Positions 18,672 through 30,292 of a stretch of DNA of 64,000 bases are shown here, in pieces. Origin of the DNA: an uncultured Thermoleophilia bacterium (GTDB lineage Bacteria; Actinomycetota; Thermoleophilia; UBA2241); NCBI GenBank assembly GCA_963715985.1, contig CAVQSP010000013.1, positions 288,001 to 352,000 on the forward strand, given 5' to 3'. The first letter of the stretch is position 1. Each line of letters begins with the position of its first letter. The notes beneath the pieces are model-generated. The model did no database searches, had not been told where the DNA came from, and saw only the letters and a program-made list of their open reading frames with translations. Made by a program: the position numbers and the translations under genes.

Positions 18672-20141
18672 GTGAAACGCAATCTGTTCGCCGGCCAGCG
18701 CCGCAGCGGCGGTATCGGCCTTTCAATGTTCACCGACGACGAGATCCACATGATCCACCGTGGCACGCTCGTCGTCCTCGAGCGCACCGGCATCTGGGTC
18801 GAGCTCGACGAGGCGCTGGACATCTTCAGCGACGGCGGCTGCAAGGTCGACCGCGAGACGCACATCGTCAAGATCCCCCCGCACGTGGTGGAGGACGCCG
18901 TCGCCAGCGCCCCCGAGTCCATCGCGCTGTGTGGCCGCGACCCGAGGAACGACATCCTCATCGAGGCGGGGCGCGTGGGCTTCAGCAACTTCGGCGAGGG
19001 CATCAAGGTCATCGACCCCACCAGCGGCGAGCTGCGCGACTCCACGAAGAAGGACCTCGGCGACATCGCCCGGCTGGTCGACGCCCTGCCGGACATCGAC
19101 GTCTTCGAGATGGCCGTGGTCTCCGGCGACAAGCCCCCGGAGACGTTCTCGCTGCACAACCACGAGGCGGCCATCGTCAATCAGACGAAGCCCATCTCCG
19201 GCGGGGCGCAGGACGGCCGCGCCGTGCACACTACGGTGGAGATGCTGGCCGCCGTGCAGGGCAGCGAGGACGCCGTGCGCGAGCGGCCGATGATGATCAT
19301 GGGCACCTGCCCCGTGAGCCCGCTCAAGCTGGTCAAGGACTTCTGCGAGATCATCATCGAGGCGGCGCGCGTGGGCCTGCCCTCCTGCGTGCTCAGTATG
19401 GCCATGGCCGGCGGCTCGTCGCCGGTCACGCTGGCCGGCACGCTGGTGACGCACAACGCCGAGGTGCTCGCCGGCATCGTGCTCGGCCAGCTCACCGAGC
19501 GCGGCAGCAAGGTGCTCTACGGCTCGTCCACCACGGCTATGGACCTGCGGCTGGTCACTGCCTCCGTCGGCTCGCCGGAGTGCGCCATGATCAGCGCCGG
19601 TGCGGCCCAGCTCGCCCGACAGTACCGCCTTCCGAGTTACATCGCGGGGATGTAGGGCGACGGCAAGACCAGTGACGTGCAGACCGGTCACGAGAAGACC
19701 CTCACGGCTCTGATGGCGGCGTTGGCAGGGACCAACCTCATCTACGGGTCGGGAATGATCGAGTCGGGCGTCACCTTCGATTTCGCGCAACTGGTCATCG
19801 ACGACGAGATCGCGCGCATGGTCAAGCAGGTGGTCGGCGGCGTGCGCGTGGACGACGAGTCGCTGGCGGTGGACGACATCGCGAGCGTGGGCTCGTTCGG
19901 CGACTTCCTCAGTCTGGACGCGACGATGGCGCACATGCGCGAGCAGTCGCAGCCGCGGCTCATGGACCGGCGCGTGCGCGAGGAGTGGGAGGAGGGCGGC
20001 AGCCTGGGCATGTACGACAAGGCCCTGGCCAAGGCCCGCGACCTGCTCGAGAACCACCACCCGGAGCCGCTGCCCGACGACGTGCGGCAGCGGGTCCGCG
20101 ACATCGTGGAGCGCGAGGACAGGGCGGCCGGCAGGGCCTGA
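18672..20141 (+). CDS. mttB: Trimethylamine:corrinoid methyltransferase MttB with in-frame amber codon (predicted pyrrolysine, codon 328)
   Basis: ORFs 18672-19655 and 19677-20141 are in frame, separated only by TAG 19653-19655; context LPSYIAGM-*-GDGKTSDVQTGHEKT; also SPL, PVTLAGTLVTHNAEVLAG, GSSTT, GSPE. Confidence 0.92.
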
Positions 20142-20215
20142 CGGGCGTCCCCGGTCCGGACGCGACGCGGGCGGGGCGGCTCTCCCGGCCGCCGCCCGCG
20201 GCGCGTTCCGCCTCC

Positions 20216-21296
20216 TCATTCCCTCTCGTCGATCCAGCCGGTGACGACGAATCTGTCGCCGGGCACGATGTCCCTGCCGCTCCATGAAGATCCATGAAGG
20301 CGTGGCAGGTGAGGCCGGCGTACGCGCCCGACCCCTTCGCCACGGCGTACTGGAAGTGCTCGAGCGCGGCCCGTGCCACGCACACCGTCGAACGCGGCGC
20401 ACTCCCACGCGCCGTCTGCGTTCGTCATGGGTCCAGGAGCCGCCGTAGTCGATACTGCCGTCGGGCGCGGGGGGCCGCCCTCCTCGACGACCTCTGCTTC
20501 CAGGTGGCCGTTCACGCGCGGGTCCGACTGGTCGAGGTTCCAAGCCCATGAGTAGGTCGTCGTACCCCGCGCGGCTGTCGGTCGTGATGCCGACGACGGG
20601 CGTCCAGACCCGGGGGCGTCGTCCCCGGCCCGGGGGCCGGCGGCACCGGGCTCCCGTCGGTAGTCTCGATCCACCCGGCACCACTCGATCTGGATGTCGG
20701 GCGTGAAGCCCTGGCCGGCCTCCACGAACCAGCCGGTTCATCGCGGCCTTGAGGCCGGCGTAGCCGCCGGTCCCCTGTCACCGCGAGACGCACGTGGTGC
20801 TCGTCGCCGCCGGCGGCGATGCCCCCCGTCCATCTGCCGACCCAGGTGCCGCCCTCGTTGGTGATCCGGCACGGTGCCCCAGAGCGTCGCGCTCATGTCG
20901 GTCTGCCGCTGGTCCATGTTGACGATGACGTCGTACCGCCCGCTCAGGCGCGGGTCGGAGCTCTCCTGCCGGAACACCCACTCGGCGCGGCGCGTCTGCA
21001 TCGTGTCCCGTCGACCATCTTCTCGCTCTGGTAGGGTCCGTGATAGTCGACCAGGGCTTGCGTGAAGACGAACGGCAGCATGCCGCGGAACTCGCTAACC
21101 GCTACCGGGACCTGCGCTGCGGCCGGTACCTGTAACGCGGGCGCAGATTCGACCGCCGTCGGCCCTGGCGCCGCCGTCGATGCCGCCTGCGAGTTCGCCC
21201 CGTCGCAGGCCGCCACACCGGCCGCACCCGCGACCGTGAGCAGCAGGCACAGTGCAGAGCACGCACGCTCGACCAGAGACTCTCGTGTGACATCAT
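20216..21296 (-). pseudogene. Multiply frameshifted lipoprotein with two related beta-rich domains
   Basis: SD GGAGG + ATG 21296; lipobox VAAC; repeated SDPRL/VxG and G(T/S)G.YAGL motifs across several frames. Confidence 0.5.
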
Positions 21297-21399
21297 CCGT
21301 CCTCCCTCTGTCGGTGGGGATGCTCTCTCGCCCACGCAGACAGACCGGGCAAGGGCCGTTGTTTCTTCGCGTGCCAGTCGTTGGAGCCCCGAGAGGACG

Positions 21400-22886
21400 C
21401 GGGGAGGACGTGGGGTCCGGCGCTCGCGGCGTGAGGTGCTTCCGGCGACGCTGTCGCCCGAGTAGGTCCTGCAACGAGTCCGCGATCCGCGAGAAGCTCC
21501 TGCGCCGAGGCGCCGCCGGCGATCGTCAGCAGGACACCGTCCTTGACCGCCCAGAGGTGCGGCGTGGAGGACGTGGTGGCCACGACGATGCTCGCCGTGG
21601 CGCCGGCGAAGGCGCCCGATGTGATGGGGCGCTCGGTGCGCACCAAGGCGGTCCAGGCGGGATTGTAGGAGTCAACCGGGTCTTCGGTCGCCGCGTAGTA
21701 CGGGTCGGCGAGGGTGCGGGTGGAGACGGTGAGGGCGTCGAACCCGTGCGTGTACTGCAGCTCGAAGATATGGCGCGGCCCTGGACGAGGTGGTTGGTGG
21801 TCAGCGCCCGTGGGCGCGACGGCGAGCGTGCGGCCAGGCGAAAGCCGGCCGGGGCACGAAGCCGGGCACGAGCGGCGTCATCGCCGGTGAAGCCCGCCCG
21901 CCTCCTCGAGAGGAGATGCGCCGGAAGCCCGCGTCGCTTGCGCCGGAGCGTCTCGCCCCGCCGGCGCCCCACCGTGAAGGCGCCGGCTGGCAGCGGCTCG
22001 TTGTAACGGACGTCCAGGTAGTGCAGGTCGGCGATGAGCACCCCTGCAGTCGATCTCATGGAAGCGGACGGGGAGCCACGTCCGTTTGTCGATCGGTCAC
22101 CTCGTACACCGGCCAGTCCACGGAGGTGGCCGGAGCTGGCGAGCTCGGCGACCTGTCCCCTTTCGTGCAGGTCACGGTCCAGGCCGGCCGGCCGTCCATC
22201 ATCGGCGTCGTCGAGGGTGAAGGCGCCGGACGCCTGCATCGCGCGCCCGGAGGTCCCGAGGTCGACAGCCGGTCAGCGGGTCGGCGACCGCGTCCGGCGG
22301 TCCGAGCGGGACGTTCCGCGTCACGGTGAGCCCGCGTCCCGGACGATAGTGCCGGAGGACGCCGGCTCGAGGCGTCGTAGGCCACGGACGTCGGTCGCCG
22401 TAGCCGTCGCCGGGGCGATAGCCGTCGCGCGGCGGGTCCGCCCGAGCTGCGTCAGGCGGTAGCTGCCGTCGGCGCTCTGCAGCATGCGGTACCGGAAGTA
22501 GTCGTAGTGGAAGCCGACCAGAGATGCGGTTCCAGTCGAGGCGCCTTGAGCGTGACGTCCGCCTGCCAGGTGCGGCCGGACGAGGAGGCGGCGGGCGTCC
22601 GCCTGACGACGTCGGCGGCGTCGACCGTCTGGGGCCCGACGGGTCTGCGGCAGGCCGAAGAGGACGGCCGCCGCGGCGGCGGCGGCGAGCGCGGCCGCGA
22701 CAACCGCGATGCGCAGGGGCGGCGCGGTCAGGGCGGCGCGCAGGCGGCCGAGGAACGTCCGGCGCGCGATCACGTCGGCGCCGCCGCGGCGATCGCGGCG
22801 CGGATCGCTCCCAGTAGTCCGGCGCGTGCTCCGGTCCGCGAGGACTCGAGCTGCTGGCCGAGCTCCCTGTCGCGGATCTCCTCCAT
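21400..22886 (-). pseudogene. Multiply frameshifted anti-sigma-type membrane protein (LolA/RseB-like); 3' end approximate
   Basis: TGATG coupling to ECF sigma stop; MEEIRDRELG..., TM helix, C-terminal LTIAGGASAQELLA spread over frames. Confidence 0.5.
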
Positions 22887-23455
22887 CACTCCCCCTCGAC
22901 GTAGAGAGATGGCCTCAGGTGGCGGCGCAGAGACGCGCGAGCCGCGGACAGGCGCGAGGCCAGGGTCCCCGTGGGCACGCCGAGGATGTCGGCGGTCGTC
23001 GCGTAGTCGAAGCCCTCGCGGTCGACGAGCAGGACGGCCAGGCGCTGCTCGGGCGGCAGGGCCGCGAGCGCCTCCGCGAGCGCCTCGTGGACGGCGACCG
23101 TCTCGGCCGGGTCCAGATCGCAGTCGGCGGGCTCGGGCATCTGCTCAGGCGACAGCGGGACAAGCCGGCCGGATCTCGCGACGGCATCGCAGCAGGCGCG
23201 ATAGGTGATGCGGCACAGCCAGGTGCCCAGCGACGCCTCACCGCGAAAGCCGGCGAGCGAGCGGTACACCTTGAGTGCGACGTCCTGCATGACGTCGTCC
23301 ATCAGCTGGCGGTCGCCGAGAACGTGATAGGCGACGATGCGGAGACGGCGGTCGTAGTGGCGCATGACGTCGATGAACGCCGCGTCGTCGCCGGCCGCGG
23401 CCGCGGCGAGGACGCCCTGATCGATCTCCTCAGTCCTCTGCGCCCAGGCAGACAC
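22886..23455 (-). CDS. ECF RNA polymerase sigma factor
   Basis: DDVMQDV, FRGEASLGTWLCRI, LPPEQRLAVLL...GTLASRLSAAR. Confidence 0.9.
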   Translation of the reverse strand: MSAWAQRTEEIDQGVLAAAAAGDDAAFIDVMRHYDRRLRIVAYHVLGDRQLMDDVMQDVALKVYRSLAGFRGEASLGTWLCRITYRACCDAVARSGRLVPLSPEQMPEPADCDLDPAETVAVHEALAEALAALPPEQRLAVLLVDREGFDYATTADILGVPTGTLASRLSAARASLRRHLRPSLYVEGE

Positions 23456-23708
23456 GCCCGCCCCTCCCTCCGGACGCTCGACCCGCTCAGGCGTGAGCGT
23501 ACCCCTACCGGACAGGCGCCGGCCCGTTGCGGCCCACATGACACGGGGCTGCGCGTCGGCTACGGCTGTCACTGTGAGCATGAAGCCGCTCCCTCCTCTC
23601 GGTCAGATAGACCGCAGAAGGGCCCGGTTTCTTCGGTGGGAGGGAGGGATCCCCGGTGGGTGCCGGTGGACGGCGTCTCGCGGGACCGTGCTCAGGCGCG
23701 ATTCGGTT

Positions 23709-24392
23709 TCAGCGCGCTGGGGAGGGCAGCACCCAGTCCTTGGCGGCGGCCAGATGCACGCGCAGCGTGTACTTCGCGCCGCCGTCGGTGACGCCGTAGG
23801 CGAAGTCGCCGTCGGCCGTGCCCTGAGCCATGGCGGCGTGCGTCCACGGGTTCTGCGGCCAGACGGGCACGCCGGGCTGCAGCCCCACGGCTCCACCCGC
23901 CGCCACGTCGGCCTCCGCGGGCGGCGTGCCGCCGTGCGCGGCCGCCCAAAGGTCCACGTACTGCCCGACGAGGGCGAGGCCGGCCTTGGCGGAAGCGTCG
24001 CGCTCATCCTTGAGCCACGCCGGAACGCCGCCGCTCACCTTGTACGAGCCTTTGGAGAGGTGGCCGACCAGGGTGTAGCCGCTCAGGTCGGCCTTCACGC
24101 GGTAGGTGTACGTGCCCTTGGACGTCCCCGGCGCCATCGTGCCGCCTGTCCACGGGTTGCCCGGCCACACCGGCGCCTCCAAGGCGCCGCCCTTCTTGAC
24201 GTCCGCCACAGCCGGGTACACGAACCCGTCCTTCTCGGCCTGTGTGTTGATGTAGCCCTGCAGCAGCAGGATGTTCATCTGCACCTGCTTGTCCACGAAG
24301 TTCTCGGCGGCGCTCGCGGCGCCCGGCAGCGCGGCGAGGGCGAGCACGGCGAGGGCGACGAGCAGGATGGGGGTGAGGACGCGTCTGGACAT
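23709..24392 (-). CDS. Secreted protein with two pilin-head-like WPxNPWT domains
   Basis: Sec signal ending ASA; two internal repeats VWPGNPWT and VWPQNPWT. Confidence 0.7.
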   Translation of the reverse strand: MSRRVLTPILLVALAVLALAALPGAASAAENFVDKQVQMNILLLQGYINTQAEKDGFVYPAVADVKKGGALEAPVWPGNPWTGGTMAPGTSKGTYTYRVKADLSGYTLVGHLSKGSYKVSGGVPAWLKDERDASAKAGLALVGQYVDLWAAAHGGTPPAEADVAAGGAVGLQPGVPVWPQNPWTHAAMAQGTADGDFAYGVTDGGAKYTLRVHLAAAKDWVLPSPAR

Positions 24393-24471
24393 GAGAGCTC
24401 CCAGGTCGGTTTGTGCTGTGTGGTGCAAGTGTGGGGGCGGCGAGCGCGGCCGGTCAACCGGGCGCCGCGCC

Positions 24472-24480
24472 TGCTAGGAT
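24472..24480 (+). promoter_or_regulatory. Extended -10 promoter candidate for mtbB
   Basis: TGcTAGGAT 34 nt upstream of ATG 24515; SD GAGGGG. Confidence 0.5.
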
Positions 24481-24514
24481 GAGGCCGGAGCTGCCGCGAC
24501 GAGAGGGGACGACG

Positions 24515-25900
24515 ATGGAGACCAGGGTGCCCACCCGCATGGGCGACGGGTTCATGGTCGAGATGACGCGCAGCGAGCTGCGCGCCGACATCGAAGCGGC
24601 CACGCAGGAGGCGGCGCGCAAGGCAAAGACGCCGCCGCTCGCCGCCGCCGAGCAGGAGCACCTGCTGGACATCTACGCCTCGCGGGCCGCCTTCACCGCC
24701 GTGGACATCGGCGACCAGGTGGTGCTGAGCTGCGACGGCGGCGGCAGCAAGATGACCGGCACCGACATCCAGGACCTGCTGGAGAGCGAGCAGCGGCTGG
24801 GCCAGGACATCCTCGAGCTCTGGCACATCGAGTACAGCTACAAGGCCATCAAGACGATCCTGCCGTTCCAGCAGCAGGTGATGCAGAACGCCCAGCTGAT
24901 GCTGACGGCGCCCATCCAGTACGGGGCGCAGCCCAATCTCGCCTTCTACAGCCGGCCGGACGGCCCGTGCCCCAACTGGTTCGAACTGCTGCCGCGCGGC
25001 GACATCGCCGGGTCACGCGCGGCCGTGGAAGAAGCCATGGAATACGCGACGCAGGACTTCGTGTACGTCGCCGACGGCATGCTCGAGGCCGGCGCCGACG
25101 GCGTGGACTTCGACACCACCGGCGGCGCCGGCGACGCCGATCTCTTCAGCACGCTGCGTGCCGTGCGCCACGTGCGCGAGCGGTACCCGGAGGCCGGCAT
25201 CGAATTGGGCATGGCCGGCGAGTTCGTCATCGGCGTGCACGGCGAGCTCACCTGGGAGGGCACCCGGCTCGCCGGCATGTGGCCGCGGCAGCAGCTCGAG
25301 GTGGCGCAGGACGCCGGCGTCACCATCTTCGGGCCGGCGGTCAACATCCGCAGCGGGCGCTCGTGCTGCTGGAACACGGCCTACTCGCTCACGGTCATCA
25401 AGCCGTGCATGGAGGTGGCTCGCATCCCCGTCCACGTCAACGTGGGGGAGGGCGTGTGCGGCGTCCCCGTCAACGGGTATCCGGGGGAGGACGCCGTCTC
25501 GCGGGCGGCCAAGGCACACGTCGACATCCTGCGCTGCGACGGCTTGTAGGTGGGGTCGGGTGACTCCAGAGGCATGGACGTCACTCACGCGCTCGCCGCG
25601 GGCATGGGCGGCATGCGCACGGCCGGAGACCTGGTCGCGCGCCTGCAGATGTCACGCGGGATGCGGCTCGAGGAGGCGAAGCGGACCGTGGCCGGCAAGC
25701 TCGGCTGCACGGTCCGCGACCTCAGCGACAGCTACGCCATGGAGCAGCTGCGCGGCGAGCTGGGCCTGGGGCGGATCCTCGACCACTCCAATCTGCACCC
25801 CGGCAAGCCGAACGCGATGAGCGCCAAGTTCCGCATCGCCGAGCTGCTCGGCCTGCGGATCAACTCGGTGGAGCGCTTTCGGGAGCTGGCGGGGCTGTAG
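24515..25900 (+). CDS. mtbB: Dimethylamine:corrinoid methyltransferase MtbB with in-frame amber codon (predicted pyrrolysine, codon 345)
   Basis: RMGDG, YSYKAIK, GADGVDFDTTG, GMAGE, FGPAVN; TAG 25547-25549 in context CDGL-*-VGSGD followed by GMGGMRTAGDLVAR in the same frame. Confidence 0.92.
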
Positions 25901-26396
25901 CGCTCGCCGCCGCGGCGAGCGCCGAGCGCCGCATGATCGCGCCCACGGCCACGGCGGCGACGCCGATGGGCACGAGCAGGATGCCGGTGAGGAGCGTCAC
26001 GTAGAGGCCGATGCCGGGCCGGTACATCTTGACCATGGAGTCCGCGGCGGAGATCGCCTCCGCGGCGAAGACGACGCCGGCCACGACCACCCCGGCGGCG
26101 AGCGCCATGGTGACGCGCCGCGGTCCAAGGATCAGGAGCAGGGCGGCGATCGCCATCGCTCCCAGCGCCGCCCCGAGCACCGGCGGCCCCCACTGGGTCT
26201 GCAGCACGCCCACCACGCCGGCGGGCTTGGAGAGGCTGAAGTTGACGTACTGGGCCGTGTACTCGTTGGCCCAGGGCAGGAAGACGGCCACGAGGCCCGC
26301 CGCCCCGCCCGCCATGATGAGCACGGCGTAGCCGATCCAGTCGCCTCTCGCGAAGCGGTGTCTGCGGAAGCGGGGTGTGCGCATCGTCCTTGTCAT
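25860..26396 (-). CDS. Membrane protein (4 TM)
   Basis: VFLPW...GIGLYV pattern; convergent 41-nt overlap with mtbB. Confidence 0.6.
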   Translation of the reverse strand: MTRTMRTPRFRRHRFARGDWIGYAVLIMAGGAAGLVAVFLPWANEYTAQYVNFSLSKPAGVVGVLQTQWGPPVLGAALGAMAIAALLLILGPRRVTMALAAGVVVAGVVFAAEAISAADSMVKMYRPGIGLYVTLLTGILLVPIGVAAVAVGAIMRRSALAAAASATAPPAPESAPPS

Positions 26397-26532
26397 CGGC
26401 AGGTTCCTGTTCCGGCTGATACCGCGGCCGGCGGCGAGCCGAAACGCGGGGAGGGCATGGGCCGGGCGACGGATCGCTGCAGGCCCGGCCCGGACCGGCC
26501 GATAGTGGGGGAGACTACCACGGAGGACGACG

Positions 26533-26910
26533 ATGAGACGTTTGACGACAGGCCTGCTCGCGGCGCTGGTTGTGCTGGCCGCGGCGGCGGCGCTGGGCGC
26601 CTGCGGCAGCAAGGACATCCAGACTCCCACGGGCACCATCGACATCGCCAAGGACCAGGCGGCCAAGAGTGAGATCATGCTGGTGAAGACGGGTATCGCC
26701 GCCCATGTGGCGATGAACGGGGCGGCGCCGCCCAACGCCTCGCAGGAGGTGCTCGGGTCCTTCGTCAACCCGTGGCCCAAGAACCCGTGGACGCAGGCCC
26801 CCATGAAGCAGGGCAAGACGGAGGGCGACATCGTCTACGCGCCGGGAGCAGGCACGGCATACACGCTCGGCGTCGTGCTCTCGGACGGCAGCGTGTACAA
26901 CGCGCCGTGA
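26533..26910 (+). CDS. Lipoprotein with pilin-head-like WPxNPWT domain
   Basis: Lipobox LGAC; PWPKNPWT; SD GGAGG. Confidence 0.75.
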   Translation: MRRLTTGLLAALVVLAAAAALGACGSKDIQTPTGTIDIAKDQAAKSEIMLVKTGIAAHVAMNGAAPPNASQEVLGSFVNPWPKNPWTQAPMKQGKTEGDIVYAPGAGTAYTLGVVLSDGSVYNAP

Positions 26911-27011
26911 CCGGCATCGGCCTTCAAGGCCGCCGCCGGTGGTGCCGATAGGGGCACGTGATGCAGCACACCGCGAGACAGTCGCAGCGTGCGCGCGGTT
27001 CCGCGCGTGAC

Positions 27012-28184
27012 ATGAGAGGCACGGCTCTGGAGCGCCTGTGGCCGGCCCTTGCCCGTTCGCCGGCCACGGGGCCGGAGCAGCGGCGCGTGCGGCTCCTGAC
27101 GGCGATGCTCGCCGCGCTGCTCGCCCTCGCGTCCATCGCCCTCCTGGTGGTGGTCATCGTCGACCCGGCGGGCAGTGCCCGACGCGGCGAGTACGCCCTG
27201 CTCATCGCCGCGGTCCTGCTGCTCCTCGGCGTCGCCCTCGCCCTCAATCGCGCGGGCCGGTACCGCCTCGCAGCGTCCCTCACCGTCCTCTGCGCGGTGG
27301 TCGCGCCCTGGGTGTCGGCGTTGCTCGACGCGCGCGTCCTCGAGGGAGACTTCGTCCCACTCACCTATGTCGTCGTCCCGGTGCTGCTCAGCGGCATCCT
27401 GCTCTCGGCGCTGGTGACCGTCCTTGTGTCGGCGGCGCAGCTGACCGCCCTGGTCCTCTGCCCCTTGTGGGTCTCCACCACGGGCACGGTCAATTGGCCC
27501 AGCCTGTGCACGATGGTGCTCTTCGTGTGCGCGCTCAGCGTCATCGCCAACCTGATGAACAAGAGGGACCTGGACCAGATCATGCGCCAGAACCGCCGGC
27601 TCGCGGAGGACGAGGCGCTATTGCGCGAGCAGTCGGTGCGCGACCACGTCTCCGGGCTGTTCAACCGGCGGTACCTGGAGGAGACCCTGGAGCGTGAGCT
27701 TCGCCGGGCCGAGCGCGACGGGACCACGGTGGCGATGGTCATGCTCGACCTGGATCGCTTCAAGGAGCTCAACGACGCGTTCGGGCACGCCGCCGGCGAC
27801 GAGGTGCTGCGCAGGGTGGGCGAGGCGCTCAAGGCGAGCCTGCGCTACGCGGACATCGCCTGTCGCTACGGGGGGGATGAGTTCACGCTGATCCTGCCCA
27901 AGGCGCCGCGCGAGGCGGTGCTGCGGCGCGCCGAAGACCTCAGGCGGCAGATCGGGGCACTCTGCGTCACCTTCGTCGGCAGGCCATTGCCCTCGCTCAC
28001 AGTCTCCGTCGGCGTCGCGGTGTTTCCCGAGGACGGCGCGTCTGCCGCGGCGCTGCTCGCCGCCAGCGACGTCGCCCTCTACCAGGCCAAACACGCCGGC
28101 AAGGACCGTGTGGGGCTGGCCGGGGCGAGCGCAGCCCGGGTGACGCCGGCTCTTGAGCCGGATGTCGGAGTCCTGTCGCGGTGA
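27012..28184 (+). CDS. Membrane diguanylate cyclase (GGDEF)
   Basis: About 6 TM; DLDRFKELND, GHAAGD, RYGGDEF, I-site RYAD. Confidence 0.92.
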   Translation: MRGTALERLWPALARSPATGPEQRRVRLLTAMLAALLALASIALLVVVIVDPAGSARRGEYALLIAAVLLLLGVALALNRAGRYRLAASLTVLCAVVAPWVSALLDARVLEGDFVPLTYVVVPVLLSGILLSALVTVLVSAAQLTALVLCPLWVSTTGTVNWPSLCTMVLFVCALSVIANLMNKRDLDQIMRQNRRLAEDEALLREQSVRDHVSGLFNRRYLEETLERELRRAERDGTTVAMVMLDLDRFKELNDAFGHAAGDEVLRRVGEALKASLRYADIACRYGGDEFTLILPKAPREAVLRRAEDLRRQIGALCVTFVGRPLPSLTVSVGVAVFPEDGASAAALLAASDVALYQAKHAGKDRVGLAGASAARVTPALEPDVGVLSR

Positions 28185-28223: not shown

Positions 28224-29600
28224 TCAGGCGCCGATCAGCTTCTTGACGAGGGTGGCTCGCTTGCTGGGTCGCCCCGTGCGCACCTCCGCGTCGTCGGCGC
28301 TGCCCATCGCCTTGAGAGCCGCGTTGACCGCGAGCCAGCGCAGCGGTTCGGGCTCCCAGGGCTTGGAGCGATGGTTCACCCACGGCAGCTCAGTGAGCTC
28401 GGTGGAGTGTGCGAGGATCAGGTCGCACAGGGTGCGGCCGGCGAGGTTGGTGGTGGCCACGCCGTCGCCGATGTAGGCCCCCGCCCATGCCATGCCGGTG
28501 GCGCGGTCGAGGCCCACCGAGGAGTACCAGTCGCGAGGCGCCGCGATGGCGCCGCCCCAGTGGTGCGTGACCTCGGCGTCGCCGATGGCCGGGAACAGCT
28601 CGCCGAGCAGGGCGCGGAGGTGGTCCCGCACCAAGGGGTCGCGTTCGTAGTCCTCGCTGAGCCTGGACCCGAAGTGGTACGGGGCGCCGCGGCCGCCGAT
28701 GGCGATGCGCCCGTCCGCGGTGTGCATGGCGTAGAAGATGAGGAAGCGGAAGTCGCCGAACACCTCGCGGCCGCTCCAGCCGACCTCCCCCCAGAAGGTG
28801 TCCGGCAGGGGCTCCGTGCCGATCATCAGCGAGTAGATCGGTATCACTGTGCGCTCGAAGCCCGGGAGCTCGGGCGTGAACGCCTCGGTGGCGCGCACCA
28901 CGACCTCGGCGTGCACCTCCCCGAAGGGCGTGACCGCGCGGTGCGGCTCGAGAAGGGTGACCGGGGTGCGCTCGTAGATGGGCACCCCAAGGCGCTCAAC
29001 GGCGCCGGCGAGCCCGCGCGCCAGGCGCGCCGGGTCGACGGCGGCGCCGTGCGGCGTGTACCCCGCGCCCAGACACCCGGCGACCCTGATGCGCTCGCGC
29101 ATCTCCGCCGCGCCGAGCTGGCGGTAGTCCGCCTCGCCGAAGCCCCAGGAGCGCTCCCACTCGACGGCCTCGCGGAGGCGGAGGAGCTGCACCGGCGTCA
29201 GGGCGAGGTCGAGCTGACCGCCCATGCAGAAGCGCGCGTCGATGCTCTCTTCGTCCACGACGCGCGCGATCTCCCTCACGGTGGCGTGGAGCGCGCGCTG
29301 CTGGTCGATCACCTTCTGGCGCCCGTGACGTGCCGCCGCCTCCTCACGCGACCCCGGGAACGTGGTGTGGCACCAGCCCCCATTGCGGCCTGAAGCTCCG
29401 AACCCGGCGATCTCGCGCTCGAGCACGGCGATGCGCAGGTGCGGGTCGGCCTTGCGGAGGTAGTAGGCGGTCCAGAGTCCGGTGAACCCGGCGCCGACGA
29501 CGGCGACGTCCACGTCCAGAGGGCCGGGCAGGGAAGGGCGGGGCGTGAGCTCGCCGGGGACGCCGTCGAGCCACAGGCTGCGTGCGCGGTAGTCGGTCAT
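28224..29600 (-). CDS. FAD-dependent oxidoreductase (DAO/PuuB-like amine oxidase)
   Basis: GAGFTGLWTAYYL, GFGASGRNGGW, WEPEPLRW. Confidence 0.85.
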   Translation of the reverse strand: MTDYRARSLWLDGVPGELTPRPSLPGPLDVDVAVVGAGFTGLWTAYYLRKADPHLRIAVLEREIAGFGASGRNGGWCHTTFPGSREEAAARHGRQKVIDQQRALHATVREIARVVDEESIDARFCMGGQLDLALTPVQLLRLREAVEWERSWGFGEADYRQLGAAEMRERIRVAGCLGAGYTPHGAAVDPARLARGLAGAVERLGVPIYERTPVTLLEPHRAVTPFGEVHAEVVVRATEAFTPELPGFERTVIPIYSLMIGTEPLPDTFWGEVGWSGREVFGDFRFLIFYAMHTADGRIAIGGRGAPYHFGSRLSEDYERDPLVRDHLRALLGELFPAIGDAEVTHHWGGAIAAPRDWYSSVGLDRATGMAWAGAYIGDGVATTNLAGRTLCDLILAHSTELTELPWVNHRSKPWEPEPLRWLAVNAALKAMGSADDAEVRTGRPSKRATLVKKLIGA

Positions 29601-29694
29601 CGTGGGCTCCTTGGGGGGTCGGCGGCATCCTACCAGAGCCTGCCGGTGGCACGTTTGAGCGCTGGAACAACTCCCCCGAAAGCAGGTGATCGCC

Positions 29695-30292
29695 ATGAAC
29701 ACGACACGGTTCGAAGAGGCCTACCGCGGCACGCCCCCGTGGGACATCGGACGGCACCAGCCGGTGTTCGAGGCGCTCGCCGAGGCCGGCGACATCGTCG
29801 CGCCGGTGCTGGACGCAGGGTGCGGCACCGGCGAGAACGCGCTCTATCTGGCCGCTCGCGGCCTGGAAGTGGTGGGCGTCGACGCCGTCGAGACGGCCGT
29901 GGCGGCCGCGCGGGCCAAAGCGGCCGCGCGCGGCCTGACGGCCGGAGTTCCTCGTCCACGACGCTCTCAGCTTGGGCGATCTTGGCCAACGTTACGCCAC
30001 GGTCATCGACTCGGGCCTGTTCCACACCCTCGAGGACGACGAGCGCGAGCGCTACGTGGACGCGCTGGCCGCCGTCATCAAGCCGGGCGGCCGCTACTTC
30101 GTGCTGTGCTTCAGCGAGCTCGAGACCGGCAGCGGCGGTCCGCGGCGCGTCACGCAGGCGGAGCTGCGCGAGTGCTTCGACAGGCCGCCCTTCCGCGTGC
30201 TCTCCATCGAGGCCGCCGCGTTCGCCTCCAACGCTGGGGGCGGCGGCCGCAAGGCGTGGCTGGCGCGGGTGGAGCGTCTGCCGGGCGTCTGA
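29695..30292 (+). CDS. Class I SAM-dependent methyltransferase (frameshift near 29945)
   Basis: PPWDIG, LDAGCGTGE; IDSGLFH in second frame. Confidence 0.8.

What the first reader, a model, noticed from the sequence alone, without database searches (positions are those of the whole stretch)
24515..25900. Second amber-containing methyltransferase: dimethylamine MtbB
Seen: an MtbB-family ORF reads CDGL-TAG(25547)-VGSGD and continues in frame to 25900 (461 aa). Known: archaeal MtbB has the motif DGI-Pyl-IGVGD, and MtbB is unrelated in sequence to MttB. Two unrelated genes each with a TAG at its family's Pyl site is hard to explain by error, especially as the other errors here are indels. Inference: a sequential TMA to DMA demethylation route in this bacterium.
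Basis: partly seen in the sequence, partly recalled or inferred. Interest (0 to 1): 0.85.

Follow-up and report, generated by a model that had tools for sequence, protein, structure and literature searches.

The report
Pyrrolysine-coding dimethylamine methyltransferase gene, Thermoleophilia
This is an intact gene for a dimethylamine-type methyltransferase whose internal TAG "stop" codon is almost certainly read as the rare 22nd amino acid pyrrolysine; it is real, but the same trick has already been reported for this group of uncultured wetland and soil actinobacteria.

Summary
Window 24515-25900 (+) is one intact MtbB-family gene (PF09505, 505 bits; TIGR02368, 375.9 against a cut-off of 369.1) with a single in-frame TAG at 25547-25549.

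- The TAG is position 1 of a full-length, above-threshold match to Rfam PYLIS_2, the 100 bases after the pyrrolysine codon of known mtbB genes.
- The TAG is kept in 115 of 115 full-length relatives examined, including all 11 paralogues in this genome.
- The same contig carries pylB, pylC, pylD, tRNA-Pyl(CUA), pylSn and pylSc.

The organism is an uncultured Thermoleophilia actinobacterium. Pyrrolysine-type mttB and mtbB in Actinobacteriota genomes are already in print (PMC10805028). This scan has reported the same thing before, on other pieces of this genome and on other genomes, so this is a new member of a known kind.

Two points go beyond that.
- This copy belongs to a sharply separated, conserved subfamily (motif CDGL-Pyl-VGSGDSRG). 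It has replaced about a dozen residues that are otherwise invariant in MtbB. It is inherited with a Pyl-MttB gene and has no corrinoid-protein gene nearby.
- The 3' hairpin of PYLIS_2, 68-95 bases after the TAG, is kept by compensatory changes across 101 sequences.

The substrate and any role of the hairpin are untested.

The parts
24515..25900 (+). mtbB-family gene: 461 codons plus a terminal TAG. It encodes a methylamine:corrinoid methyltransferase with one UAG-encoded residue.
   Evidence: PF09505 at 505.3 bits, residues 6-457 on profile positions 4-462 of 463. TIGR02368 at 375.9 bits against a cut-off of 369.1. The AF2 model has pLDDT 85.5 and pTM 0.89 with an eight-strand beta/alpha pattern.
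25547..25549 (+). In-frame TAG, codon 345, the proposed pyrrolysine codon.
   Evidence: It is position 1 of the Rfam PYLIS_2 match. TAG is kept in 11 of 11 own paralogues and in 115 of 115 relatives. Residue 345 lies in strand 343-346 of the model.
25547..25646 (+). Rfam RF02509 PYLIS_2 element, the 100 nt after the mtbB pyrrolysine codon.
   Evidence: 57.4 bits against a gathering score of 36, E 3.7e-11, model positions 1-100 of 100. Its 5' helix is poorly matched in the window (non-standard pairs marked).
25615..25642 (+). 3' hairpin of PYLIS_2. The core stem is 25620-25626 paired with 25631-25637, the loop is AGAC (25627-25630), and the outer pairs reach 25615/25642. It contains the invariant Gly371 codon GGA (25625-25627).
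   Evidence: 92.4% of cells are paired over 101 sequences. Pair 84:99 shows five pair types (90 of 101 paired) and pair 87:96 is paired in 99 of 101. Phylogenetically independent changes go the compensatory way and never the opposite way on the starred branches. GGA is invariant in 101 of 101.
25559..25585 (+). Hairpin starting 10 nt after the TAG, specific to this orthologue group. There is no covariation, so it is unproven.
   Evidence: 100% paired but invariant in 25 orthologues. Only 68% paired across 101 sequences.
25898..25900 (+). Terminal stop of mtbB, also TAG. The next in-frame stop is TGA at 25934-25936, 11 codons later.
   Evidence: 22 of 35 orthologue rows also end in TAG, followed by TGA 8-189 codons later.
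24500..24509 (+). Purine-rich stretch CGAGAGGGGA, 5-14 nt before the ATG: a likely ribosome-binding site (inferred).
   Evidence: Read directly. Not tested.
18672..20141 (+). Companion mttB gene with in-frame TAG at 19653-19655. The start codon is not settled: GTG at 18672 is the first listed start.
   Evidence: TIGR02369 at 692.4 bits against a cut-off of 525. PF06253 matches both halves. Rfam PYLIS_3 matches 19653-19752 at 60.8 bits against a gathering score of 38. It is syntenic with mtbB in 12 of 14 related loci.

Best explanation
The gene encodes a full-length (461-residue) MtbB-family methylamine:corrinoid methyltransferase in which UAG codon 345 is translated as pyrrolysine.

- Decoding (inferred from the genes present). 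PylB, PylC and PylD make pyrrolysine from lysine. PylSc with PylSn charges tRNA-Pyl(CUA). That tRNA competes with the release factor at this UAG. The catalogued mRNA element after the codon (PYLIS_2), whose 3' hairpin is under RNA-level selection, may help, but this has never been tested.
- Catalysis (inferred from the family). The enzyme is a TIM barrel with pyrrolysine at the end of the last barrel strand. By analogy with the archaeal enzymes, pyrrolysine binds and activates the methylammonium substrate so that its methyl group passes to the Co(I) corrinoid of a partner protein.
- Partners (inferred). The corrinoid partner must be encoded elsewhere in the genome. RamA would reactivate it, and an MtaA/MtbA-like enzyme would pass the methyl group on, probably to tetrahydrofolate.
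- Substrate (inferred). Dimethylamine is the most likely substrate. It would be produced from trimethylamine by the co-inherited Pyl-MttB.
For: - Family membership.
- TAG at the known Pyl site: the Rfam PYLIS_2 match starts on the TAG, and the two Pfam half-matches abut at profile position 354.
- Conservation of the TAG:
  - 11 of 11 own paralogues.
  - 115 of 115 full-length relatives.
  - 150 of 150 listed class-wide matches carry '1 TAG'.
  - 149 of 150 listed family-wide rows; the one exception covers only residues 2-305.
  - Nearly all of the 120 best database homologues are about 344 residues long and cover 74% of the query, meaning gene callers stopped at the same codon.
- Coding signal continues past the TAG: GC3 0.94.
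- Decoding machinery on the same contig, about 200 kb away: PylSc 316.5 bits; tRNA-Pyl(cta) at C13:555126-555198; PylB (in two frames in the assembly), PylC, PylD and PylSn.
- Pathway parts elsewhere in the genome: two TAG-bearing MtmB genes, two RamA genes, URO-D family methyltransferases, CdhC and more than 20 corrinoid-protein matches.
- Synteny with Pyl-mttB.
- Fold.
- Literature:
  - MtbB, MttB and MtmB of Methanosarcina barkeri carry pyrrolysine at the UAG position, shown by mass spectrometry, and the amber position is conserved within each class (PMC2933860, passages read).
  - Actinobacteriota MAGs express Pyl-type mttB and mtbB (PMC10805028, passages read).
Against: - No protein evidence exists for this organism.
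- TAG is not a rare stop here. It ends about 20% of 2523 sampled coding ORFs, so read-through must be conditional, partial or tolerated.
- No corrinoid-protein, RamA, MtbA or permease gene lies near this copy, nor in relatives where mttB and mtbB are adjacent.
- This copy and its orthologues have the lowest TIGR02368 scores of all copies, 374.6-389.7 against a cut-off of 369.1.
- They have changed residues that are invariant in 80 other MtbB sequences, so dimethylamine specificity is uncertain.
- I could not align the gene directly to an experimentally characterised archaeal MtbB. The one genome-collection scan returned only close relatives.
- pylB is split into two frames in this assembly, either an indel error or a real defect.
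Confidence: 0.88

Rival explanations
1. The decoding is the same, but the job is different. This copy represents a neofunctionalised Pyl-MtbB subfamily (the 'GDSRG' clade) that demethylates a methylated amine other than dimethylamine, or that is tuned to a different corrinoid partner.
For: - The clade of 30 rows has 100% SH-aLRT support and the longest stem (0.59) of any clade with more than two rows.
- Identity within the clade is 79-91%, then drops to 61% or less for all other copies.
- Residues fixed in 80 paralogues are replaced in 30 of 30 clade members: R290 to Y/F, D106 to E, L239 to I, A212 to S, M312 to E/Q, E68 to Q, R84 to D, M139 to Q, and N279 to R in 29 of 30. P351 becomes S with R352.
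- By the model's secondary structure, most of these sit at strand ends or beta-alpha loops, the catalytic face of the barrel.
- The clade has the lowest equivalog scores.
- The genome keeps 10 further mtbB copies, so redundancy would allow divergence.
Against: - The pyrrolysine codon, the flanking DG-L-O-VG-GD core and 78 invariant columns are retained.
- The score is still above the equivalog cut-off.
- Conserved pairing with a typical Pyl-MttB (692 bits) fits a plain TMA-then-DMA sequence.
- No MtbB structure is solved and no model coordinates were available, so distances to residue 345 could not be measured.
- Changes on that face could equally reflect docking of another corrinoid protein.
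Confidence: 0.22
2. The TAG is a true stop. The gene is truncated to 344 residues or is a decaying pseudogene, and the downstream frame is a relic.
For: TAG is a common stop codon in this genome, 20% of sampled ORFs. Gene callers annotate the 344-residue product.
Against: - The downstream 116 codons keep GC3 of 0.94.
- They are the best-conserved part of the family.
- They stay in frame with exactly one stop in 115 of 115 relatives down to 42% identity.
- The genome has a complete pyl gene set.
Confidence: 0.03
3. The TAG is an assembly or sequencing error in a genome that has many indel errors.
For: Several genes in this assembly are split by frameshifts: pylB, cdhC, and 3 of 11 mtbB copies.
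Against: A substitution that creates TAG at the same column in 11 paralogues and in more than 100 independent assemblies cannot be an error. Contigs of other runs bridge the site.
Confidence: 0.01

Closest known systems
MtbB1-3 of Methanosarcina barkeri (dimethylamine:corrinoid methyltransferase; Pfam PF09505, NCBIfam TIGR02368)
   Same: Same family over its full length. There is a single in-frame UAG at the family's pyrrolysine site, followed by the same catalogued RNA element. Amber read-through and pyrrolysine at that position were shown for the archaeal enzymes (PMC2933860, passages read).
   Different: The host is a bacterium (Thermoleophilia, 70% GC). There is no adjacent mtbC corrinoid gene. 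This copy scores barely above the equivalog cut-off and carries clade-specific replacements of otherwise invariant residues. The methyl acceptor downstream is presumably tetrahydrofolate rather than coenzyme M (inferred).
Pyl-type mttB and mtbB of Actinobacteriota MAGs from Stordalen Mire (PMC10805028), and the bacterial PylRS survey listing two Actinobacteria (PMC9630628)
   Same: Same phylum and the same trait, recognised there by truncation at the amber codon and reported as expressed (passages read). One related MAG returned is labelled 'palsa_645'.
   Different: Those papers give one sentence each. They do not describe paralogue subfamilies, gene context or the RNA element. My searches 'pyrrolysine + Thermoleophilia' and 'Thermoleophilia/trimethylamine/methyltransferase/mttB' found no dedicated description.
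Olavius algarvensis delta-1 symbiont (six MtbB and two MttB pyrroproteins; PMC1976440)
   Same: A bacterium with a split pylSn/pylSc system and many Pyl-MtbB paralogues.
   Different: This genome holds 11 TAG-bearing mtbB copies, three of them frameshifted in the assembly. Its family typically holds 5-11 matches per genome. The phylum is different.
Rfam RF02509 PYLIS_2 ('pyrrolysine insertion sequence mtbB'), derived from the 100-nt post-UAG analysis of PMC3639795
   Same: A full-length match above the gathering score. The 3' hairpin of the model is the helix that covaries here.
   Different: The model's 5' helix is not kept in the window. No function has been demonstrated for the mtbB element. 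PMC2933860 records that no mtmB-like PYLIS could be seen in mtbB.

Membership tests
MtbB (PF09505 Dimeth_Pyl / TIGR02368) | Full-length sequence match above the curated cut-offs. | tested here: met
   PF09505 at 505.3 bits (cut-off 25), profile positions 4-462 of 463. TIGR02368 at 375.9 bits against 369.1: met, but only just.
MtbB (PF09505 Dimeth_Pyl / TIGR02368) | A single in-frame UAG at the family's pyrrolysine position. | tested here: met
   The UAG is position 1 of the Rfam PYLIS_2 match. The Pfam halves abut at profile position 354. TAG is at the column in 115 of 115 relatives.
MtbB (PF09505 Dimeth_Pyl / TIGR02368) | Residue-by-residue alignment to an experimentally characterised archaeal MtbB. 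| not testable with these tools
   No archaeal sequence could be fetched. The one genome-contig scan returned 80 close relatives. The paper with the M. barkeri genes is not held.
MtbB (PF09505 Dimeth_Pyl / TIGR02368) | TIM-barrel fold with the Pyl residue on the catalytic face of the barrel. | tested here: inconclusive
   The AF2 model (pLDDT 85.5) has eight beta/alpha units, with residue 345 in the last strand. The Foldseek top hits are generic TIM barrels and betaine-homocysteine methyltransferase at TM 0.3-0.4. No MtbB structure is in the PDB by sequence.
MtbB (PF09505 Dimeth_Pyl / TIGR02368) | Cognate corrinoid protein (MtbC) encoded beside it. | tested here: not met
   No B12-binding protein was found in the window near the gene. 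The nearest tblastn corrinoid match on the contig is about 245 kb away. None was found beside the adjacent mttB-mtbB pairs of two relatives.
MtbB (PF09505 Dimeth_Pyl / TIGR02368) | Dimethylamine-specific methyl transfer to a corrinoid. | not testable with these tools
   This needs an enzyme assay.
Bacterial pyrrolysine decoding system (pylT, pylSc, pylSn, pylBCD) | All six genes present in the same genome. | tested here: met
   PylSc TIGR02367 at 316.5 bits. tRNA-Pyl(cta) found by ARAGORN. PylB lies in two overlapping frames, 304.8 + 128.5 bits. PylC scores 316.8, PylD 199.2 and PylSn 123.5 bits. All lie on contig C13 together with the window.
Rfam RF02509 PYLIS_2 | Covariance-model score above the gathering threshold, starting at the UAG. 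| tested here: met
   57.4 bits against 36, model positions 1-100.
Rfam RF02509 PYLIS_2 | Base-paired helices supported by covariation. | tested here: met
   Met for the 3' hairpin only:
- 92.4% paired with several pair types.
- 0 of 500 shuffles reach the covariation score.
- Independent compensatory changes, 81:102 with median p 0.008.

The 5' region is not supported: helix 1 is 68% paired.

The most novel reading that the evidence does not exclude
The window's gene represents a separate, conserved subfamily of pyrrolysine enzymes, the 'CDGL-Pyl-VGSGDSRG' clade. It was found in 44 of 81 sampled genomes of this bacterial family. Its catalytic face has been rebuilt: an invariant Arg and an Asp were lost, two Glu became Gln, and two new Arg were gained. 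On this reading it activates a methylated amine other than dimethylamine. That would be the first pyrrolysine enzyme outside the mono-, di- and trimethylamine trio. It would work with the co-inherited MttB and a corrinoid protein encoded in trans.
Probability: 0.2. Interest if true: 0.7.

Novelty: new member of a known kind. Interest (0 to 1): 0.3.

Why it matters
As a pyrrolysine gene it adds little: the trait is in print for Actinobacteriota, and this scan has met it many times. Three things give it some value.

- Annotation. Gene callers truncate essentially every homologue at the TAG, so methylamine use by abundant wetland and soil Thermoleophilia is under-annotated. These bacteria compete with methylotrophic methanogens for methane precursors.
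- A testable set of paralogues. The family carries 5-11 TAG-bearing mtbB paralogues per genome, sorted into old subfamilies. The one in this window is the most divergent. These are natural experiments on what pyrrolysine enzymes can accept.
- A recoding signal. The covarying hairpin after the UAG makes the long-doubted idea of a pyrrolysine insertion signal directly testable in bacteria.

Tried and rejected
- Archaeal reference alignment. The single genome-contig scan with an alignment of paralogues returned only Thermoleophilia-type relatives. The Paul et al. 2000 paper is not held. The Rfam model served as the link to the known Pyl site instead.
- Solved structure of MtbB. None is found by sequence; the best PDB E-value is 0.14, to a homeobox protein. 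Foldseek gave only generic TIM barrels, and neither MtmB nor MttB was among the listed hits.
- A hairpin right after the TAG as a recoding signal. The stem at 25559-25585 is perfectly kept in 25 orthologues but never varies, and it is not kept in paralogues (68% paired). It has no support beyond sequence conservation.
- Unusual synonymous constraint after the TAG. It is below the gene's mean (0.29-0.59 against 0.585) but is not the minimum. Codons 94-125 are more constrained.
- Expression:
  - Four RNA-library runs hold small shares of the stretch.
  - The two laid (X19, X21) gave contigs over 24 of 30 bins.
  - None bridges the TAG by the tool's 31-letter rule, and contigs cannot show transcription. 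No claim is made.
- Functional link to the downstream FAD oxidoreductase (28227-29720). It is syntenic in 12 of 14 loci but convergent, and it best resembles aminophosphonate or pipecolate oxidases below their cut-offs. I treat it as inherited gene order.
- Corrinoid, RamA, MtbA or permease genes near the gene or near the adjacent mttB-mtbB pairs of two relatives: none found.
I used 30 references instead.
Full report
**What is in the sequence.** The window is 70% GC throughout. At 24515-25900 on the + strand lies a reading frame of 461 sense codons, interrupted once by TAG at 25547-25549 and ended by a second TAG at 25898-25900. The mechanical ORF list splits it into 24413..25549 and 25550..25900.
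- Both pieces have GC at third codon positions of 0.93-0.94, the coding signature of this genome.
- Read through, the protein matches Pfam PF09505 (Dimeth_Pyl) over profile positions 4-462 of 463 at 505.3 bits.
- It matches the NCBIfam equivalog TIGR02368 at 375.9 bits, just over the cut-off of 369.1.
- Scanned separately, the two pieces match profile positions 4-353 and 355-462. The TAG therefore occupies exactly one profile column.

**Is the TAG at the pyrrolysine site?** I could not fetch a characterised archaeal MtbB. The single genome-collection scan returned only close relatives, and the original M. barkeri paper is not held. An independent link exists, though.
- Rfam RF02509, PYLIS_2 ('pyrrolysine insertion sequence mtbB'), models the 100 nucleotides that begin with the UAG of known mtbB genes.
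- It matches window 25547-25646 over model positions 1-100 at 57.4 bits (gathering score 36), with the model's UAG on the window's TAG.
- The other amber gene of the window, mttB, behaves the same way: PYLIS_3 matches 19653-19752 at 60.8 bits against 38, and the protein scores 692.4 bits against TIGR02369.

**Conservation.**
- A tblastn of the protein against the window's own genome finds 11 MtbB paralogues at 43-60% identity, three of them split by frameshifts in the assembly. All 11 carry TAG at this column, within DG[LF]-TAG-[VAM]G.GD.
- Across 201 genomes of the same class, 39 have the family, concentrated in the window's own family (33 of 35) and one other (5 of 35). All 150 listed matches contain exactly '1 TAG'; 66 more matches were not listed.
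- Across 81 genomes of the family, 78 have a match at E <= 1e-100. Of the 150 listed rows, 149 carry one TAG; the exception covers only residues 2-305.
- In the loci fetched, 115 of 115 full-length rows (109 distinct proteins, some places fetched twice by two tools) have TAG at the column and no other stop.
- In the large protein database, nearly all of the 120 best hits are about 344 residues long and cover 74% of the query. Gene callers everywhere stopped at this codon.
- Contigs of two other metagenome runs bridge the site. No variant at the codon appears among the 40 differences shown; 109 were not shown.

**Decoding machinery and organism.** The window is G000:C13:288001-352000. The same contig carries:
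- PylSc at 559328-560053, 316.5 bits;
- tRNA-Pyl(cta) at 555126-555198;
- PylB (two overlapping frames, so an indel in the assembly or a real defect), PylC, PylD, PylSn and a corrinoid protein.

Relatives found by name are 'uncultured Thermoleophilia bacterium' MAGs from wetland, soil and sediment projects. TAG is not avoided as a stop: of 2523 sampled coding ORFs, 76.5% end in TGA, 20.2% in TAG and 3.3% in TAA. Read-through must therefore be conditional, partial or tolerated.

The rest of a methylamine pathway is present elsewhere in the genome:
- two TAG-bearing and five or six TAG-free MtmB homologues;
- two RamA;
- URO-D-family methyltransferases;
- acetyl-CoA synthase CdhC, split by a frameshift;
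- more than 20 corrinoid-protein matches and dozens of MttB-superfamily genes.

**Context.**
- Nothing near the gene encodes a corrinoid protein, RamA, MtbA or a permease.
- The neighbours are an ECF sigma factor (22889-23602, -), two unknown proteins (23712-24473 and 25863-26834, both -) and a GGDEF protein (26952-28181, +).
- In 14 loci around orthologues, the order mttB ... mtbB - unknown - FAD oxidoreductase recurs in 12.
- In the other two (L051, L055), an mttB at 64-65% identity lies directly upstream of mtbB on the same strand with an 8-base gap. Even there, no corrinoid gene is nearby.
- The mttB-mtbB pair thus looks like an old unit. In this genome, 4.4 kb of sigma-factor and unknown genes separates the two.

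**A distinct subfamily.**
- Orthologues of the window's copy form 45 listed rows in 44 of 81 genomes at 79-100% identity, after which identity drops to 61% or less.
- In a maximum-likelihood tree of 110 sequences they form a clade of 30 rows. It has SH-aLRT 100 and a stem of 0.59 substitutions per site, the longest of any clade with more than two rows. The eight intact own paralogues fall into eight different clades (quick search, midpoint root for drawing only).
- The clade has replaced residues that are fixed in the 80 other sequences:
  - R290 to Y/F (80 of 80 R);
  - D106 to E (80 of 80);
  - L239 to I and A212 to S (80 of 80 each);
  - M312 to E/Q (79 of 80);
  - E68 to Q and R84 to D (79 of 80 each);
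  - M139 to Q, G143 to A, N279 to R;
  - the motif after pyrrolysine is GDSRG instead of GDP.G.
- By the secondary structure of the AlphaFold model (pLDDT 85.5, pTM 0.89; strands at 70-73, 99-102, 134-139, 196-199, 228-232, 271-273, 306-310, 343-346), most of these lie at strand ends or in the following loops. That is the face of a TIM barrel where residue 345 also sits. This is inference, because I had no coordinates.
- The clade has the lowest TIGR02368 scores: 374.6-389.7, against 407.6-524.7 for the other own copies and 669.2 for a copy from the second family.

This pattern fits either a changed substrate or a changed corrinoid partner. It does not prove either.

**The RNA element.**
- A sliding consensus fold of 29 orthologue genes puts the seven lowest energies (-28.9 to -36.7 kcal/mol) at windows starting at nt 976-1066.
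- The six highest covariation terms (0.71-1.06) lie at nt 1021-1096, at and just after the TAG (nt 1033). Elsewhere the term never exceeds 0.33.
- Part of that signal comes from protein conservation. The 3' hairpin (core stem 25620-25626 with 25631-25637, loop AGAC) is different, because it is the 3' helix of the Rfam model.
- It pairs third codon positions with each other. Over 101 sequences, pair 84:99 is GC 36, CG 34, AU 9, UG 8, UA 3 (90 of 101 paired), and pair 87:96 is paired in 99 of 101.
- The helix as a whole is 92.4% paired, against 33-43% for the whole structure when partners are slid by 1-3 columns. 0 of 500 shuffles reach the covariation score (orthologues alone).

On the protein tree, phylogenetically independent G/C changes go the compensatory way (means over 200 random pairings):

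| Pair | Compensatory | Opposite |
|---|---|---|
| 84:99 | 4 | 0 |
| 87:96 | 2 | 0 |
| 81:102 | about 7.7 (median p 0.008) | 0 |
| 78:105 | about 4.2 | rounds to 0.0 (1 in a few pairings) |
| control 87:99 | 0.3 | 0.2 |
| control 84:102 | 1.5 | 0.2 |
| control 81:99 | 1.4 | 2.2 |

The output for a fourth control, 84:96, was partly cut.

- The Gly371 codon in the loop is GGA in 101 of 101 sequences of a lineage with 93% GC3, giving an invariant GGAGA.
- The hairpin that starts 10 nt after the TAG (25559-25585) is invariant in orthologues and not kept in paralogues, so it is unsupported.
- A conserved structure in the post-UAG region of mtbB was already proposed in PMC3639795 (passages read) and is the basis of the Rfam family. 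Its function is untested.

**What is known already.**
- PMC9630628 (passages read) lists PylRS in two Actinobacteria.
- PMC1976440 (passages read) describes six MtbB and two MttB pyrroproteins in a deltaproteobacterial symbiont.
- My searches 'pyrrolysine + Thermoleophilia' (one unrelated paper), 'pyrrolysine/Actinobacteria/MtbB' and 'Thermoleophilia/trimethylamine/methyltransferase/mttB' found no dedicated account of the Thermoleophilia MtbB radiation.
- This scan itself has reported the pyl gene set and other Pyl methyltransferase islands of this same genome. It has also reported orthologues of this very gene in three other genomes and the PYLIS_2 hairpin with compensatory changes in several genomes. 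My results agree with those notes, and I tested them independently here.

**Verdict.** This is a real, intact, pyrrolysine-encoding mtbB-family gene and a new member of a known kind. The points worth carrying forward are the divergent 'GDSRG' subfamily, which has no cognate corrinoid gene, and the well-supported downstream hairpin, which is already catalogued.

Noticed in passing
window 25898-25936: The terminal stop of mtbB is itself TAG, with the next in-frame stop (TGA) 11 codons later. 22 of 35 orthologue rows also end in TAG, against about 20% of ORFs genome-wide. If pyrrolysine decoding is active, a share of the protein would carry a short, non-conserved C-terminal extension.
   Followed up: partly
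window 25625-25627: The Gly371 codon is GGA in 101 of 101 mtbB sequences of a lineage with 93% GC3. It forms an invariant, Shine-Dalgarno-like GGAGA in the loop of the conserved hairpin. A pause site or a recognition motif is conceivable.
   Followed up: partly
window 24794-24889 (codons 94-125 of mtbB): This stretch has the lowest synonymous-site diversity of the whole gene among 29 orthologues, 0.13-0.27 against a mean of 0.585. It is stronger than the region after the TAG, and no consensus structure stands out there.
   Followed up: no
window 20150-22850: About 2.7 kb between mttB and the sigma-factor gene has no clear third-position GC phase and no Pfam match in any frame. It may be degraded or frameshifted genes, or non-coding DNA.
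   Followed up: partly
window 23712-24473 (-), and L046, L048, L052, L056: The unknown 254-residue protein upstream of mtbB, next to an ECF sigma factor, has several tandem paralogues between mttB and mtbB in related genomes, five or more matches in L052. It may be an expanding anti-sigma or membrane protein family. It has no Pfam or NCBIfam match.
   Followed up: no
G000 contigs C10:583-1945, C14:693402-694776, C9:155858-157227; L003:5812-7006; C11:144815-145280: Three of the 11 mtbB copies, pylB and cdhC are each split between frames in this assembly. These are either indel errors of the assembly or real pseudogenes. For pylB the difference would decide whether the strain can make pyrrolysine at all.
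   Followed up: no
G000:C13:139538-139635: A tRNA-Sec(tca) gene lies on the same contig, so the organism probably recodes UGA as selenocysteine as well as UAG as pyrrolysine.
   Followed up: no
L069, L109, L116: MAG records labelled Deltaproteobacteria, 'delta proteobacterium' and Alphaproteobacteria carry mtbB genes nested inside Thermoleophilia clades. L069 has a branch of 0.032 next to a same-genus genome. Mis-binned contigs or mislabelled MAGs are more likely than recent transfer.
   Followed up: no
G000:C14:682146-683495 and 690446-691795: Two MtmB genes carry one in-frame TAG each. Five or six further MtmB-family genes have none; these are non-Pyl homologues.
   Followed up: no
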